Positions 58,858 to 63,514 of a stretch of DNA of 64,000 nt are shown here, piece after piece. The position numbers and the translations under genes were made by a program. Every line of letters begins with the position of its first letter. Position 1 is the first letter of the stretch. Location of the stretch: assembly GCA_021796385.1 (NCBI GenBank), contig JAJYXQ010000081.1:1377-65376 (forward strand), given 5' to 3'. Below the pieces are notes generated by a model, which was not told the origin of the DNA, made no database searches, and saw only the letters and a program-made list of their open reading frames with translations. This stretch comes from Thermoplasmata archaeon. Its GTDB lineage: Archaea > Thermoplasmatota > Thermoplasmata > Lutacidiplasmatales > UBA184.

Positions 58858-59532
58858 CTAAGACTTCATCTCGGGTGTGACCAGCTCGGGGGGCAGGACT
58901 CCGACCAGAAGAAGCCGCCCAGCCTGAGTCAGCTGGATGCCGAGCCGCCCTTGCACCCCCCGGACCACCTCGACCAAGGAGAGGGGGGCAAGGCCCTTGG
59001 TTCCGCGTCCGCCGCGGATGTGGTAGGAGAGGAGGGTTTTGTCCATCCCGGTAGACTGGGTGAGCTCATCGAGGGAACCGACCTGCCCCCCCGTCTTCTC
59101 CAGAGCCTGCAGGATCGAGATCTTGGCCTCGCTCACCAGTTCCGAGTAGGAGAACTTGAGCACGGGGAGGGCAATCAACCGATCCTCCATCACATCGATG
59201 GCGCGGATTCCGTTCACAAAAGCCGCGGCCAACAATGAGCAGGTCATCATGCGTGGGCCGCTCCCAGTGTTCACGATGATCTCGTCGAACTTGCCCCGCT
59301 CCGACCGTACCAGTTCGGACACGATCCGAAGGCATCCGAGAAGGGGTTCCCCCTCGATCCTGCGGACCGAGACTTCGAGCTTGATGAGTCCCGCCTTCCG
59401 GGCGACCTCGTGCGCGGCTTCTGCGAAGGGCGGTGTGTGAAGCAAAACCAGCTTGGTGATGGGAAAGGCGCGCACACCTACGAAGACCGCATCAGGAATC
59501 TCTCCTACGGTGGCAATCTGCAGTACTTTCAT
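58858..59532 (-). CDS. CARF-like + winged-HTH transcriptional regulator (HFX_2341/DUF6293-like), intact copy
   Basis: Rossmann-like N-domain with IIVNTGSGPR, then LPVLK linker and wHTH (SLDELTQ...KTLLSYHI); GGAGG RBS before ATG 59532 (59562 alternative). Confidence 0.8.
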   Translation of the reverse strand: MKVLQIATVGEIPDAVFVGVRAFPITKLVLLHTPPFAEAAHEVARKAGLIKLEVSVRRIEGEPLLGCLRIVSELVRSERGKFDEIIVNTGSGPRMMTCSLLAAAFVNGIRAIDVMEDRLIALPVLKFSYSELVSEAKISILQALEKTGGQVGSLDELTQSTGMDKTLLSYHIRGGRGTKGLAPLSLVEVVRGVQGRLGIQLTQAGRLLLVGVLPPELVTPEMKS

Positions 59533-59628
59533 TGATCCACCCTCCGGGTGTCCAAATGTCATCCCGATGCAAAGGAGGTAGTTCAGGCATATAACTTGGG
59601 GGAGGTCCCCTGCTTTGTTGAATGAATC

Positions 59629-59937
59629 CTAGGCGACGGGTGCTTGGAGGACCTTCCACTCCTTCGTCTTTGGTAGGACGTCCCACACAGCGACCATGGC
59701 CCCATGACTCCTTAGGAACTGGAGCACCTTGCGGGCATCCGCCTTCCGGACCATGAACACTCCATTCGCATACCGAATGCTCTGTACTTTGTCCAAGACC
59801 CCTTTGATCTGGGTGTGATAGCGTCCATAGTGCGAACAGTTCCGGTATCCGTAGAGTTCCCGGTAGAACTTGGAGACCTCCCCCGGAGTTCGTCCCTTGG
59901 TCTTCATGGTGAAGGCGATGAGCGATGCGGTGCGCAT
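59629..59937 (-). CDS. Small basic hypothetical protein (passenger; possible Cas2/VapD-like ferredoxin fold)
   Basis: FYRELYGY...HYGRY...GVL..V pattern; own TTATAT box at 59960-59965; stop abuts the left TIR. Confidence 0.7.
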   Translation of the reverse strand: MRTASLIAFTMKTKGRTPGEVSKFYRELYGYRNCSHYGRYHTQIKGVLDKVQSIRYANGVFMVRKADARKVLQFLRSHGAMVAVWDVLPKTKEWKVLQAPVA

Positions 59938-60002
59938 GGGTGGACTGTCATGGCGAAGGATATAAGTGTGTGACTGCCTTATAGGGCCGTCATAAACGCC
60001 CG

Positions 60003-60807
60003 TTGGGGAAGCCCTACCATGACCATCGGAACTGGCCCGCATACAACGGATCCCTCGTCCTCCGCGGCGAGTTCTACTTGGACCTGAGCCCCTTCCGGGA
60101 CTGGGAGAAGGAGCGGGAGGCCATGAACTGGCACAAGCGCGGGGGCCAGTTCCTCTTCCGTGAGTCCTTCGTGCGGTGGCTGGTGATCGGGAAGCAACTG
60201 GTAGACTACCGGGGACTGGAGGGGGTTACCCGGCAACTCGCCCAGCTCGGTCTCATCCCCCTCGCCCCGGATTACTCCACCTTCTAGCACCGCATCCACG
60301 CACTACGTCCCCCCTGCGGACACCGGACTACCATGACTTGGAACTGGGATCGGACGGGACGGGGCTGAAGACCTCCAATGCCGGGGAATACCGGATCTTC
60401 CGCTACGGGGACCCAGACGCGAGGCAGAAAAACATCTAGTGGTCGTGATCACGGCGGATGTGCGGCACTAGAAGCTGCTGGGGATCGAGGTGCACATCGA
60501 GGGGAAGGGACATTCCGAGACGCGGACGGCGGCCAGCCATGTACGGGAAGTGGCCCAGAAGGGGTATCGGGTGCGGAAGTTCTACGGCGATGGGGCCCTC
60601 GACACGGCGGAGATGTTCGACACCTTGCACAGGACGGGGACGGAGCCAGTGATCAAAATCCGGAAGAACGCATAGTCCTACTACCGCCACAGTCCTGGGG
60701 GAAGCAAGTATCGGAGGAGGGATGTGAAGGCATATCGGAAGCAAGGGTATAGGGCGTGGGCAGAGCAGAAACACTACGGGTTGCGGTGGCCAGGGACAGA
60801 AGGGATA
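60003..60807 (+). pseudogene. IS903-group DDE transposase pseudogene
   Basis: RNWPAYNGSLVLRG, PDYST, SDGTGLK, FYGDGALD, YGLRWPGTEG; three in-frame TAGs, two homopolymer frameshifts, truncated C-terminus. Confidence 0.85.
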
Positions 60808-60964
60808 CGGGGAAAGGGGAGGAAAGGCGTAGGGAACGAGACCCTCAGGAACCCGAGTACACAATGTGCCAGAATCATTCAACAGAGCAGTGGTCCCCGA
60901 GGTGAACCCAGTGGACGTTCCAGCGTCGCACTTCTTCGGAAGGGGAAGCGATTCCCGGTCCGGT

Positions 60965-61099
60965 TCAGTCCTCCGGTTCGTCCCGCCTGTGTTTTTCCGG
61001 GACCGTGCCCACGAGGATCAACCGGCCGGCGGCGGTGATCCGCAGTGTGAGCCGACCCTGAAGACCGCGTTCGACCTCCATCAGGCCCAAGGATTCCAA
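60965..61099 (-). pseudogene. C-terminal fragment of the second CARF-like/wHTH regulator
   Basis: LESLGLMEVERGLQGRLTLRITAAGRLILVG...* aligns with the end of the intact paralog. Confidence 0.85.
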
Positions 61100-62968
61100 C
61101 CTGAACAGCGAGTCGTCCTACCCTCTACGCTTCAGTCTCTCTCCGTGACTCCTCTCGCAGGAGATCCTTGAGTTTGAGTCGCCGGAGCCCCTCCGTGATC
61201 CGGCCGGTCACATTCAGATACCAGGTGCGTCTCTCCGCACCCATGGCCACCTCGATCCGTTCTACCCGGCTCAGATCCTCGAGCAGCCGCTCCTGATACT
61301 CCGCGACTTCGTCCTCCTTCACCCCTCCCTGTAGCAGTCGCCACCGGAGCGCGGTCTGCAGGCGCAGCGCCAACATGCAGACGAACAGGTAGGCCCGCAC
61401 CCGTCTCTCTCGCCGATGCCGCACGGGCTCGAGCTCCACGAAGGTCTTCGCGGTGCGGAAGCACTTCTCCACGAAGTCCTTCCCTAGATACGCCTTCACC
61501 ACCTCCCGCGCCGAGAGTCGCTCGTCCGTGCACAGGAGGGCATACTTCCCGTCCTGACGGGCAGCCTTCCTGACCTCCAGGTCCCGGTACGTCCACTCCA
61601 CCCTGGGAGTCACCCCGCCCCGTTTCACCCGCACATGCAGGAATTCCCCCCAGTCCCCCACGATCTCCCGGATGGCGTCGTGCAGCTTCGCTTCCGACCA
61701 CTTCGCCCCCAGTTTCCCCAGCGTGGTGAGCGCCTCCCCGATGCGCGAGAGGGCCTCGTTCCGCTCCACCCGATCCGACACGGCCTTGTCCGCATTGGTG
61801 TAGACCACCACCTCCCGCTCGGTCCCCCACAACATGGCCCGGACCTTCACCGCATGGATCCCCCCGCTCTTCGACCGCGTGACGAAGCTGCTGGGGGTCT
61901 CGGGTACCTCACTCGCGTCCAGCAGGGTGCCGACCTCCTTCAGCCTCTTCGAGAGGCCCCCCAGGAGGTGCCATCCCATCCCCCGGGCCTCTTCCACAAA
62001 CTTCCTCCCCATGATCCCGCGGTCCACGATCAACAGCCCCGGCGGCATCTTCGATGCCTGGAGCTGGACCAGCAGGTTACGGACCGTCCCTCCCCCGTTG
62101 CGGCTCCCCCGGTAGGCGAAGTGGAAGAGCGGGGCTCGGTCGTGGCGGCTCACCACGACCCCGACGTTCACTTGGGGGCGGTTCTGGTAGTCCGGATTGT
62201 GGCCGACCTCGGCGATGGGGCAGCTCACCCCGAAGAACAGGACGTTGGTGAGATCGTAGGCCACGACCTCCTTCTCCCCAGGGGGCAGCGGGTGGAGCGC
62301 CCGCCACCGGGCCGTGAGGGCGAGGTCGAGGGCCCGGGTGTGGTCTATGATCTCGGCGCGGGCCGGTTCATCATGACAGACCAGATCGAGAGACGTGAGG
62401 AAAGCATCCTTGGTGAAGGTCTCGTCCGGGAACCCTGAGAGCAGGGGGAGGTCCGTGGTGGTCACCCACGGGCCCAACTGGGTGGCACTCTCCGGGTCCA
62501 GGACACGGTTGATGGCCCAGAGGGTCAAGAACGTGCCAGGGGAAGGGGAGTCCGGAGCAGATTTCCCGCCCCCTATCCCATCAATGGTTGCGCGAAAGTG
62601 CAGATCTTCGGCCAGCGTCCAAAGGAGCCGGACGGCTCCGGCTCGGCGGGAATCGCCATGGGCAACCCGGTCAAGTTCCCTCCGGGGCGAACCCGGGGTC
62701 TCTCCTTCCACCCCGAGATAGCGCAGGAACCGGCTGCGGACCTTGCCTCCCTCACGGTAGGACTCTCGCTCCTCGAGGTAGACCCTGTCTCCCACCTTCC
62801 TGCGGTATGTATAGGCCATGGTAGCGGGTAGTGATACGCACTACGATATATAACGTCGCAGGTCCCTCCATGAACACCGGTGCGAGATCCCTCGGGGGGA
62901 ATCAGTCAGCCTTGGCGGAACAGGGTCAACGGGACTCCTGTAGCAAGTAGGAAACCCCTCTGTTCAGG
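61100..62968 (-). mobile_element. IS1634-family insertion sequence, 1869 bp
   Basis: Imperfect ~29-bp TIRs starting CCTGAACAG; 6-bp TSD TTCCAA at 61094-61099 and 62969-62974. Confidence 0.92.
61125..62819 (-). CDS. IS1634-family DDE transposase, apparently intact
   Basis: N-terminal YLEERESYREGGKVRSRFLRYLG, AYDLT, LIVDRG, VEKCFR..K, RVRAYLFVCMLA. Confidence 0.9.
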   Translation of the reverse strand: MAYTYRRKVGDRVYLEERESYREGGKVRSRFLRYLGVEGETPGSPRRELDRVAHGDSRRAGAVRLLWTLAEDLHFRATIDGIGGGKSAPDSPSPGTFLTLWAINRVLDPESATQLGPWVTTTDLPLLSGFPDETFTKDAFLTSLDLVCHDEPARAEIIDHTRALDLALTARWRALHPLPPGEKEVVAYDLTNVLFFGVSCPIAEVGHNPDYQNRPQVNVGVVVSRHDRAPLFHFAYRGSRNGGGTVRNLLVQLQASKMPPGLLIVDRGIMGRKFVEEARGMGWHLLGGLSKRLKEVGTLLDASEVPETPSSFVTRSKSGGIHAVKVRAMLWGTEREVVVYTNADKAVSDRVERNEALSRIGEALTTLGKLGAKWSEAKLHDAIREIVGDWGEFLHVRVKRGGVTPRVEWTYRDLEVRKAARQDGKYALLCTDERLSAREVVKAYLGKDFVEKCFRTAKTFVELEPVRHRRERRVRAYLFVCMLALRLQTALRWRLLQGGVKEDEVAEYQERLLEDLSRVERIEVAMGAERRTWYLNVTGRITEGLRRLKLKDLLREESRRETEA

Positions 62969-63514
62969 TTCCAACCCCTTGGAGCCTCGCCCCCCTCGGA
63001 TGTGGTACGAGAGGAGGGTCTTGTCCATGGCGCAAATGTGGGCGAGCTCTTCCAAGGACATTGAGGTCCCTCCAATCCTGTCCAAGGCGCGCAGGATCGC
63101 AACTTTCGCATCGCTCACCAGCTCGGAGTAGGAGAACTTGAGCACGGGGAGGGCGACCGGCATGTCACCTTTAACATCAATTGCGCGTACACCGTTGACG
63201 AACGCCGCTGCCAGGAGGGCGCAGGTCATCATCCGGGGTCCGCTCCCTGTGTTCACGATGATCTCATCGAACCGGGACCGTTCGTTCTGAAGAAGTTCGG
63301 AGACGAACCGCAAGCACCCCAGCAGGGGTTCCCCTTCAATCCTGTGGACGGAGACGTCTAGCCGAATCAAACCGGCCTTTCGGGCCACCTCGTGGGCGGC
63401 CGAGGCGAACTCGGGGGTGTGCAGTAGGATGAGCTTGGTGATTGGGAAAGACCGGACCCCCACGAACACGGCATCCGGGTTCTCACCCACCGTGGCGACC
63501 TGGAGAACCTTCAT
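62969..63514 (-). pseudogene. N-terminal part of the second CARF-like/wHTH regulator, interrupted by IS1634
   Basis: Highly similar to 58858-59532 up to GGRGSKGLE, where the IS begins. Confidence 0.88.

What the first reader, a model, noticed from the sequence alone, without database searches (positions are those of the whole stretch)
59602..60898. IS903-like 'transporter' element carrying a passenger gene
18-bp TIRs (16/18 identical to each other) with an 8/9-matching 9-bp TSD enclose 1279 bp. From memory they closely resemble the IS903 IR GGCTTTGTTGAATAAATC, and the geometry matches IS903. Inside are a dead IS903-type transposase and a divergently transcribed intact gene whose stop codon abuts the left TIR. 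Passenger-carrying IS5-family elements are little described in archaea. The intact passenger beside a decayed transposase suggests the passenger is selected.
Basis: partly seen in the sequence, partly recalled or inferred. Interest (0 to 1): 0.62.

Follow-up and report, generated by a model that had tools for sequence, protein, structure and literature searches.

The report
Dead two-gene IS903-type archaeal transposon
This is a dead copy of a jumping gene related to IS903, and its small "passenger" is a conserved, unnamed companion gene that travels with several unrelated transposase families in archaea and whose function is unknown.

Summary
18-bp inverted repeats (59611-59628 / 60872-60889, 16/18) and an 8/9 9-bp target duplication enclose 1279 bp. 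Inside are a wrecked IS5-family transposase gene and an intact divergent 102-aa gene. The left repeat matches the real IS903 repeat at 16/18, checked on an E. coli plasmid.

Intact relatives in other Thermoplasmata are 1.40-1.45 kb and make perfect 9-bp duplications. They encode a 317-329-aa transposase that passes the same NCBIfam model as IS903, and they carry the same small gene ("Acc").

So Acc is not chance cargo. It was gained once by this IS903 lineage, diverged with it (dN/dS about 0.2), and was lost once in a 1.1-kb sub-lineage, so it is dispensable.

Acc homologues also sit inside a second IS5-type element, IS1634-family elements and an IS66-like element. They occur in 52 of 301 sampled Thermoplasmata genomes. 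Acc has no Pfam, NCBIfam or PDB sequence match. Its confident model is a basic ferredoxin-like fold that weakly resembles Cas2.

Selection on the passenger after the transposase died is not demonstrable. A true passenger-carrying, transposase-less cassette with the same ends lies on another contig. I could not query ISfinder.

The parts
59602..59610 (.). Left copy of the 9-bp target-site duplication (GAGGTCCCC)
   Evidence: Matches 60890-60898 at 8/9. Related elements have perfect 9-bp duplications.
59611..59628 (+). Left terminal inverted repeat, on the Acc side (TGCTTTGTTGAATGAATC)
   Evidence: It is 16/18 identical to the IS903 repeat read from an E. coli plasmid.
   Evidence: Homologues have a conserved length of 101-107 aa. 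dN/dS is 0.17-0.30. The AlphaFold2 model has pLDDT 93.8. There is no Pfam, NCBIfam or PDB sequence hit.
59960..59966 (-). Putative TATA box (TTATAT on the minus strand) about 25-30 nt upstream of the acc ATG, in the shared divergent control region
   Evidence: A CAGTCA-N5-TTTATAT motif is conserved in 8 related elements. Its role as a promoter is inferred.
59971..59992 (.). Palindrome TGACTGCC...GGCCGTCA over the former transposase start, degenerate here.
   Evidence: The consensus hairpin has 8 pairs, 2 of them with compensatory changes across 8 elements.
59981..60871 (+). Pseudogene of an IS903-type DDE transposase
   Evidence: tblastn against the intact 329-aa relative gives 61-67% identity in three frames. 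A fragment hits NF033579. The lesions are listed.
60872..60889 (-). Right terminal inverted repeat (reverse complement TGCTCTGTTGAATGATTC)
60890..60898 (.). Right copy of the target-site duplication (GTGGTCCCC)

Best explanation
Window 59611-60889 is a fixed, dead copy of a two-gene insertion sequence of the IS903 group (IS5 family) that circulates in Thermoplasmata.

The live form is 1.40-1.45 kb. It has 18-bp TIRs (TGCTSTGTTGAAYRAAYM) and makes 9-bp target duplications. It carries two divergent genes separated by about 45-60 bp that hold a TATA box and a palindrome over the transposase start. One gene encodes a 317-329-aa DDE transposase. The other encodes a 100-107-aa basic ferredoxin-like protein, called Acc here, whose stop codon abuts one TIR.

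Acc is a long-term accessory module of the element, not host cargo. It was acquired once by this IS903 lineage, co-diverged with the transposase under purifying selection, and was lost once, leaving a classical 1.1-kb IS. It is therefore not needed for the chemistry of transposition. Related Acc genes sit inside IS1634-family elements, a second IS5-type element and an IS66-like element.

Inferred and not shown: Acc is a nucleic-acid-binding factor that modulates or assists transposition, or transposase expression from the shared control region, in a way that does not depend on the transposase family.

In this genome the copy cannot move. Its transposase is destroyed and no intact transposase of this kind is in the assembly.
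For: The anatomy is confirmed.

The intact relative L012/L011 is 1423 bp, with a perfect TSD GGGGCGAGT, a 329-aa Tnp and a 102-aa Acc that is 85% identical to the window's. That Tnp scores 160.5 bits on NF033579 (cut-off 140). IS903's own Tnp scores 353 bits on the same model. The Tnp aligns over residues 17-327 with IS903/IS903B.

The same pairing of Acc, Tnp and TIRs recurs in more than 20 loci from several Thermoplasmata families. Perfect 9-bp TSDs are seen in L012, L050 and L051.

In the Acc tree, all IS903-linked Accs form one clade with 100/97 support. In the Tnp tree, one clade with 100/99 support holds all 11 Acc-bearing copies plus 5 Acc-less copies. The Acc-less copies are nested as sister to L012/L013, and all outgroups lack Acc.

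Acc dN/dS is 0.17-0.30. Other partners are IS1634 (NF033559, 7 loci), a 374-aa IS5-type Tnp in a 1494-bp IS present at 99.7% identity in at least 3 copies, and an IS66-like Tnp that overlaps Acc by 8 nt. In the IS1634 type, the repeat unit ends about 58 bp after the acc stop.

Acc has a median pI of 9.6-9.8 and a confident fold. The own genome has only one acc and no intact Tnp.
Against: The function of Acc is inferred only from context, charge and fold; there is no biochemical, expression or interaction evidence.

Acc-less sister elements with open transposase frames (L089, L091) show that Acc is dispensable, which also fits a purely selfish or host-directed cargo. Some Acc homologues lie outside any recognisable IS: next to CDC48 in Aenigmarchaeota, and at a conserved chromosomal site in one Thermoplasmata genus. 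The family is therefore not exclusively transposon-borne.

I could not query ISfinder, so the IS may already have a name. No empty site was found, so the insertion itself is inferred from the TIRs and TSD alone.
Confidence: 0.8

Rival explanations
1. Transporter IS with a host-beneficial passenger. The 102-aa gene is cargo that benefits the archaeon and is kept by host selection after the transposase died.
For: The ORF is intact beside a transposase with about 8 disabling lesions. On the window branch, acc has 10 synonymous and 5 non-synonymous changes, which departs from neutrality (binomial p=0.002). Non-IS chromosomal Acc homologues exist. acc reads towards the downstream host gene.
Against: The window branch includes time when the element was still live. 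The ratio of tnp to acc substitution rates is the same on the intact L012 branch. The chance of no lesion in 309 bp is about 0.08. Acc is present in every intact copy of the clade and co-diverges with the transposase. A solo acc plus TIR left behind in two sister species shows about 7 amino-acid replacements at about 5% nucleotide divergence, and a lost start codon in one of them, which looks like decay and not domestication. The genome has only this one copy.
Confidence: 0.08
2. Selfish maintenance or counter-defence module. Acc is a Cas2/VapD-like nuclease, toxin or anti-defence factor that raises the persistence or spread of whichever IS carries it, without taking part in transposition.
For: The best Foldseek probabilities are for Cas2 proteins (5g4d 0.95, 7f84 0.94, 3exc 0.91). 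Acc moves between unrelated transposase families. It is dispensable for the IS.
Against: The fold matches are weak (E at least 0.02, TM 0.4-0.5). No Cas2 or VapD profile hit was found in 68 members. There is no conserved acidic residue after strand 1. No partner antitoxin-like ORF lies inside the 1.4-kb element. A dead element still carries an intact copy without a visible antidote.
Confidence: 0.1
3. Composite or nested structure. The transposase belongs to a separate IS with its own ends, inserted next to an unrelated TIR-flanked gene.
For: The region is rich in IS elements; an IS1634 lies 230 bp away.
Against: Intact relatives have exactly one TIR pair with a perfect 9-bp TSD around both genes, and no internal TIR. 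The 59984 sequence is one arm of a conserved promoter-proximal palindrome.
Confidence: 0.02

Closest known systems
IS903 / IS903B (IS5 family, IS903 group; E. coli and Klebsiella plasmids)
   Same: Both have an 18-bp TIR, 16/18 identical to the window's IRL, and a 9-bp target duplication. The DDE transposase passes the same NCBIfam model NF033579 and aligns end to end.
   Different: The transposases are only about 24% identical. IS903 is 1057 bp with one ORF that starts about 30 bp from IRL. This element is about 1.42 kb and has a second, divergent 102-aa gene plus a shared control region between the transposase start and the TIR. The terminal base is T and not G. The host is archaeal.
Transporter IS (tIS) and mobile insertion cassettes (MIC), as defined by ISfinder (my own knowledge, not checked in a paper here)
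   Same: An extra gene lies inside the TIRs (tIS). The C75 element in the same genome has the same TIRs, a perfect 9-bp TSD, no transposase and an unrelated 291-aa ORF, which fits a MIC.
   Different: In a tIS the passengers are variable cargo. Here the extra gene is the same family in every intact copy and co-diverges with the transposase.
IS66-family accessory protein TnpB (PF05717)
   Same: It is a small protein (about 100-115 aa) of unknown function encoded with a DDE transposase. In L040 the Acc homologue occupies the TnpB-like position, just upstream of and overlapping an IS66-like transposase gene.
   Different: There is no detectable homology: hhalign probability is 0.2% and none of 68 Acc members hits PF05717. 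In the IS5 and IS1634 partners, Acc is divergent and not co-directional.
Cas2 (CRISPR adaptation protein) and the VapD-type ferredoxin fold
   Same: Both are roughly 100-aa beta-alpha-beta-beta-alpha-beta proteins. Cas2 structures give the highest Foldseek probabilities. Both accompany a DNA integrase or transposase.
   Different: E-values are at least 0.02 and TM is 0.4-0.5. There is no sequence-profile match. Acc has an extra beta-hairpin. The conserved residues form a Tyr/Gly/Ser/Arg motif (LYGYxxxSxYGxYxYxRxGLLD), not the Cas2 acidic site.

Membership tests
IS5 family, IS903 group | DDE transposase of the IS903 type | tested here: met
   The intact relative scores 160.5 bits on NF033579 (cut-off 140) and also hits PF01609 and PF13737. 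IS903's own Tnp scores 353 bits on the same model. A window fragment hits NF033579 at 1.5e-8.
IS5 family, IS903 group | Terminal inverted repeats of about 18 bp resembling GGCTTTGTTGAATAAATC | tested here: met
   The IRL is 16/18 identical to the IS903 repeat read from plasmid NZ_CP073944.1. The first base is T and not G.
IS5 family, IS903 group | 9-bp target-site duplication | tested here: met
   The match is 8/9 here. It is 9/9 in L012, L050, L051 and the C75 cassette, and 8/9 in L022.
IS5 family, IS903 group | Length of about 0.95-1.15 kb with a single ORF (ISfinder description, from my own knowledge) | tested here: not met
   Intact copies are 1399-1450 bp with two genes. Acc-less sister elements are 1109-1137 bp and do fit.
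Transporter IS (tIS) | Passenger gene(s) unrelated to transposition inside the TIRs together with a transposase | tested here: inconclusive
   An extra gene lies inside the TIRs (met). Whether it is unrelated to transposition is unknown. It is constant across the clade and co-diverges with the transposase, unlike typical cargo.
Mobile insertion cassette (MIC), for the C75 element and not the window element | IS-type TIRs and a TSD around cargo, with no transposase | tested here: met
   G000:C75:58759-60090 is 1332 bp, with TIRs matching 14/18, a perfect TSD TCATCCCCC, a 291-aa ORF and no transposase similarity. The cargo's only homologue found, in a congener, has no TIRs.
Cas2 (PF09827) | Sequence-profile match and a conserved acidic residue at the end of strand 1 | tested here: not met
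   None of 68 family members hits a Cas2 model at E<=0.1. The near-invariant columns are R26, L28, Y29, G30, Y31, S35, Y37, G38, Y40, G46, L48 and D49, none of them after strand 1.
Cas2 (PF09827) | Cas2-type ferredoxin fold | tested here: inconclusive
   Foldseek probabilities for Cas2 entries are 0.91-0.95, but E is at least 0.02 and TM is 0.40-0.52. CutA, RAM and PII folds score similarly.
IS66 TnpB (PF05717) | Profile similarity to TnpB_IS66 | tested here: not met
   hhalign probability is 0.2% against a bona fide archaeal TnpB_IS66 that scores 94 bits on PF05717.

The most novel reading that the evidence does not exclude
Acc is a generic transposition cofactor of archaeal DDE transposons. 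It would be a small Cas2-like nucleic-acid-binding protein that works with unrelated transposases (IS903-type, IS1634, IS66-like), for example by bridging or protecting DNA ends, or by gating transposase expression through the promoter palindrome. That would make it a family-independent IS accessory factor and a possible evolutionary cousin of the Cas1-Cas2 partnership.
Probability: 0.12. Interest if true: 0.8.

Novelty: new variant of a known kind. Interest (0 to 1): 0.5.

Why it matters
Insertion sequences are usually described as a transposase gene between two ends. Accessory proteins are known for only a few families (IS21 IstB, IS66 TnpA/TnpB, IS91, Tn7-like elements).

Here a small, well-folded protein family without any annotation is carried inside at least three, and probably four, unrelated kinds of archaeal IS. 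It is found in about one in six sampled Thermoplasmata genomes. It is kept under purifying selection, yet it can be lost.

Acc therefore marks a recurrent functional need or advantage of archaeal transposons that is not understood. It gives annotators a marker for these elements. It is also easy to test, by running transposition assays with and without acc and by measuring nucleic-acid binding.

For this genome the practical message is modest. The locus is a dead IS in an IS-rich intergenic spot. A real cargo-carrying cassette with the same ends lies on another contig.

Tried and rejected
- Empty site. No relative among 25 searched has the flanks without the element; the one genome with the flanks is essentially the same strain.
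- Recoding. All three in-frame stops in the transposase are TAG, which suggested pyrrolysine or another code. Each is a single-base change from a different sense codon in the intact relative (TGG, AAG, CAG), and there are frameshifts as well. They are ordinary nonsense mutations.
- Homology of Acc to IS66 TnpB: rejected.
- A link between the adjacent 564-aa transposase (61125-62819) and the 564-aa IS66-like partner in L040: rejected. The equal length is a coincidence; one is IS1634 and the other IS66-like.
- Giant proteins with up to 12 'Acc-like' stretches in the representative search are repeat-rich adhesin-like proteins without the motif, so these matches are spurious.
- Viral fold library: nothing significant.
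- Partner TIRs for the solo ends on C10 and C77: none found.
- Literature. Four full-text searches and two papers read gave no description of this gene. Filee et al. 2007 could not be retrieved under the id I tried.

Full report
**1. The observation**

- The 18-bp arms lie at 59611-59628 and 60872-60889 and match at 16/18.
- With up to three mismatches the motif occurs only at these two places in the window. Shuffles predict 0.04 matches.
- The arms are flanked by GAGGTCCCC and GTGGTCCCC (8/9) and enclose 1279 bp.
- The repeat finder extends complementarity to 25 nt, because GGTCC/GGACC is itself palindromic. Relatives show that the 9-mers are target duplications and not part of the repeat.

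The ends are GGCTTTGTTGAATAAATC and the element is 1057 bp. The window's left repeat is 16/18 identical to that.

**2. What lies inside**

The plus strand from about 59981 to 60871 is a wrecked IS5-family transposase gene. Compared with an intact relative it has these lesions:
- both ATG start codons are now ATA;
- three in-frame TAG stops, at 60285, 60469 and 60673;
- three 1-nt deletions relative to the intact relative, two of which show as reading-frame switches in the window's own translation;
- about 144 bp missing from the 3' end.

Each TAG is a single-base change from a different sense codon of the relative (TGG, AAG, CAG). They are plain nonsense mutations, not a sign of a different genetic code.

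The minus strand at 59629-59937 encodes an intact 102-aa protein. Its stop codon touches the left repeat. A TTATAT box lies about 25-30 nt upstream of its ATG.

**3. The intact form of the element**

The 102-aa protein has seven close clusters in the big protein collection, six of them 101-102 aa long and one called at 92 aa. Their contigs settle the anatomy.

In L012/L011 the homologue is 85% identical. It sits divergently next to an intact 329-aa transposase. Both genes lie inside one pair of TIRs (TGCTCTGTTGAATGACTC / TGCTGTGTTGAATGAACC), flanked by a perfect 9-bp duplication GGGGCGAGT. The element is 1423 bp.

The same layout recurs in more than 20 loci from named Thermoplasmata MAGs and from the genome panel. 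A decayed copy is in the cultured Thermogymnomonas acidicola. Lengths are 1399-1450 bp, and further perfect 9-bp duplications are seen.

The window copy aligns to L012 as follows:

| Region | Nucleotide identity | Gap columns |
|---|---|---|
| Transposase part | 75.2% | 86 |
| acc | 85.1% | 0 |

The palindrome covers the transposase start codon and lies beside the conserved TATA box. It is present in eight elements, with compensatory changes at two of its eight pairs. The nested-IS alternative is therefore excluded.

**4. Family membership**

- The intact transposase passes NCBIfam NF033579 (160.5 bits, cut-off 140) and hits PF01609 and PF13737.
- IS903's own transposase is a top-scoring member of that model at 353 bits.
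- The two proteins align over residues 17-327 at about 24% identity.

With the 18-bp IS903-like repeat and the 9-bp duplication, the element belongs with the IS903 group of the IS5 family. It departs from the group's description in size and in having a second gene.

**5. Is the small gene a passenger?**

I call it Acc. In a maximum-likelihood tree of Acc proteins, all those linked to IS903-type transposases form one clade with 100/97 support.

In the transposase tree, one clade with 100/99 support holds all 11 Acc-bearing elements. It also holds five Acc-less elements of 1109-1137 bp from the window's own taxonomic family. These are nested as sister to L012/L013. Every outgroup lacks Acc: distant Thermoplasmata IS903-like elements of about 1.05 kb, a Sulfolobus plasmid copy, and E. 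coli IS903.

The simplest history is one gain, long co-divergence, and one loss. Acc evolves under purifying selection, with dN/dS 0.17-0.30. At least two Acc-less elements keep open transposase frames.

Acc is therefore a stable accessory module of the element. It is not chance cargo, and it is not required for transposition chemistry.

**6. Acc beyond this IS**

- An exhaustive HMMER scan found 117 cluster representatives.
- A profile search found 110 clusters. Every source that names one calls it hypothetical.
- 52 of 301 sampled Thermoplasmata genomes (30 of 88 genera) have at least one copy, and some have 5-8.

Partners other than the IS903-type transposase:
- **A 374-aa IS5-type transposase.** It lies in a 1494-bp element with GGCTTTGGGACAA... 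ends. One copy has a 9-bp duplication, and at least three copies share 99.7% identity in one genome, so the element is recently active.
- **IS1634-family transposases.** Seven loci, all divergent from Acc and confirmed with NF033559. Where two copies could be compared, the repeat unit ends about 58 bp after the acc stop.
- **An IS66-like transposase.** Its gene overlaps the end of acc by 8 nt, in a roughly 2.3-kb unit bounded by 35-nt inverted repeats.

In the Acc tree, the IS1634-linked, 374-aa-linked and non-IS members are intermixed, with at least three label changes each. This indicates partner switching.

Some homologues are not in any recognisable IS. One group sits next to CDC48 in Aenigmarchaeota and another beside riboflavin-kinase/ECF genes. 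A third group is at a conserved chromosomal site in one genus.

**7. What Acc might do**

- No member hits a Pfam model convincingly, and there is no NCBIfam or PDB sequence match.
- AlphaFold2 with 68 homologues gives a confident model (pLDDT 93.8): a beta-alpha-beta-beta core with an extra hairpin, a second helix and a final strand.
- Foldseek finds nothing significant. The highest probabilities are for Cas2 proteins (0.91-0.95), but with E at least 0.02 and TM 0.4-0.5. CutA, RAM and PII folds score close behind.
- The family is basic, with median pI 9.6-9.8.
- Its invariant residues form a Tyr/Gly/Ser/Arg-rich hairpin, LYGYxxxSxYGxYxYxRxGLLD.
- It is not homologous to IS66 TnpB (hhalign 0.2%).

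My reading is an inference: Acc is a nucleic-acid-binding factor that modulates transposition, or transposase expression from the shared control region, and works regardless of transposase family. A selfish maintenance or anti-defence role, and host benefit, remain possible.

**8. Is the passenger selected in this dead copy?**

The evidence is weak.
- At the transposase's lesion density, about 2.5 lesions are expected in 309 bp, so P(none) is about 0.08.
- Acc changes specific to the window lineage are 10 synonymous to 5 non-synonymous, which departs from neutrality (p=0.002). That branch, however, includes the time when the element was alive.
- The window-specific substitution rate is 0.118 for tnp and 0.082 for acc (p=0.086). 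The same ratio is seen on the intact L012 branch.
- A solo acc plus TIR, left at an orthologous site in two sister species, shows several replacements and a lost start codon in one of them. That looks like decay, not domestication.

**9. This genome and this site**

The assembly (81 contigs, 92% complete) has one acc, no intact transposase of this kind, two solo ends (C10, and C77 with a transposase C-terminal remnant), and one transposase-less cassette on C75.

The C75 cassette is 1332 bp. It has the same TIRs, a perfect duplication TCATCCCCC, about 20 nt of residual acc 3' end, and an unrelated 291-aa ORF. The only homologue found for that ORF (44% identity, in a congener) has no TIRs. This is the true passenger-carrying derivative, of the mobile-insertion-cassette type.

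The window element sits 48 bp upstream of an HFX_2341/Csa3-like regulator gene (58858-59562) and just outside that gene's TATA box. Next to it, an IS1634 has split a tandem paralogue of the regulator gene.

The same dead copy, in the same context, is found in assemblies from several samples. It is therefore fixed in this population. No empty site was found.

**10. Limits**

- ISfinder could not be queried.
- Genome counts come from a sample of MAGs in which repeats are often unassembled.
- The organism behind the IS66-like example was not identified.
- The Cas2 resemblance rests on a predicted model and sub-threshold scores.

Noticed in passing
G000:C75:58759-60090 (L002 1505-2836): A 1332-bp transposase-less cassette with the same IS903-like TIRs and a perfect 9-bp TSD TCATCCCCC. 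It carries a 291-aa ORF of unknown function (no Pfam or NCBIfam hit). The only homologue found, in a congener, has no TIRs. This is a mobile-insertion-cassette-type derivative.
   Followed up: yes
window 60965-61099, 61125-62819 and 62976-63514: An IS1634-family element (564-aa transposase, NF033559 189.7 bits) has split a tandem paralogue of the HFX_2341/Csa3-like gene at 58858-59562. The C-terminal 44 codons lie at 60965-61099. The rest, 74% identical in DNA, lies at 62976-63514.
   Followed up: partly
G000:C10:38849-38866 and G000:C77:13265-13282: Two solo TIRs of the same IS (2 and 1 mismatches). The C77 one still has a remnant of about 43 codons of the transposase C-terminus. No partner ends lie within 5-6 kb.
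   Followed up: yes
window 59971-59992; L012 1068-1098 and relatives: A conserved palindrome TGACTGY-N6-10-RCAGTCA covers the transposase start codon and sits next to the shared TATA box. Two of its 8 pairs change in a compensatory way. It could be an operator, or an mRNA hairpin that blocks translation of read-through transcripts. Palindromes also precede acc in the IS5_374 and IS1634 types.
   Followed up: partly
L074-L076 (G231:C3, three loci): A 1494-bp IS with GGCTTTGGGACAATATTATT ends, a 374-aa IS5-type transposase and a divergent Acc. At least 3 fetched copies are 99.7% identical, and the search counted 6 such Acc matches in the genome. One copy has a 9-bp TSD TATTGCTAC. The element looks recently active.
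   Followed up: partly
L031-L034 (Aenigmarchaeota contigs): A distant Acc homologue (107 aa) lies immediately upstream of a CDC48-type AAA ATPase gene (2-nt gap). The index lists it in 201 blocks of the collection. This is a cellular, non-IS context that may hint at the ancestral role.
   Followed up: no
L047 (G207:C11) and L049 (G155:C8): An orthologous solo acc plus one TIR, with the transposase and the other end gone, is shared by two species (94.6% nt identity over 2 kb). The start codon is lost in one of them.
   Followed up: partly
L072 (G209:C77:283-2030): An Acc homologue is divergent from a 468-aa protein with a Cys-rich N-terminus. That protein matches no NCBIfam transposase model and may be a further, unclassified partner.
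   Followed up: no
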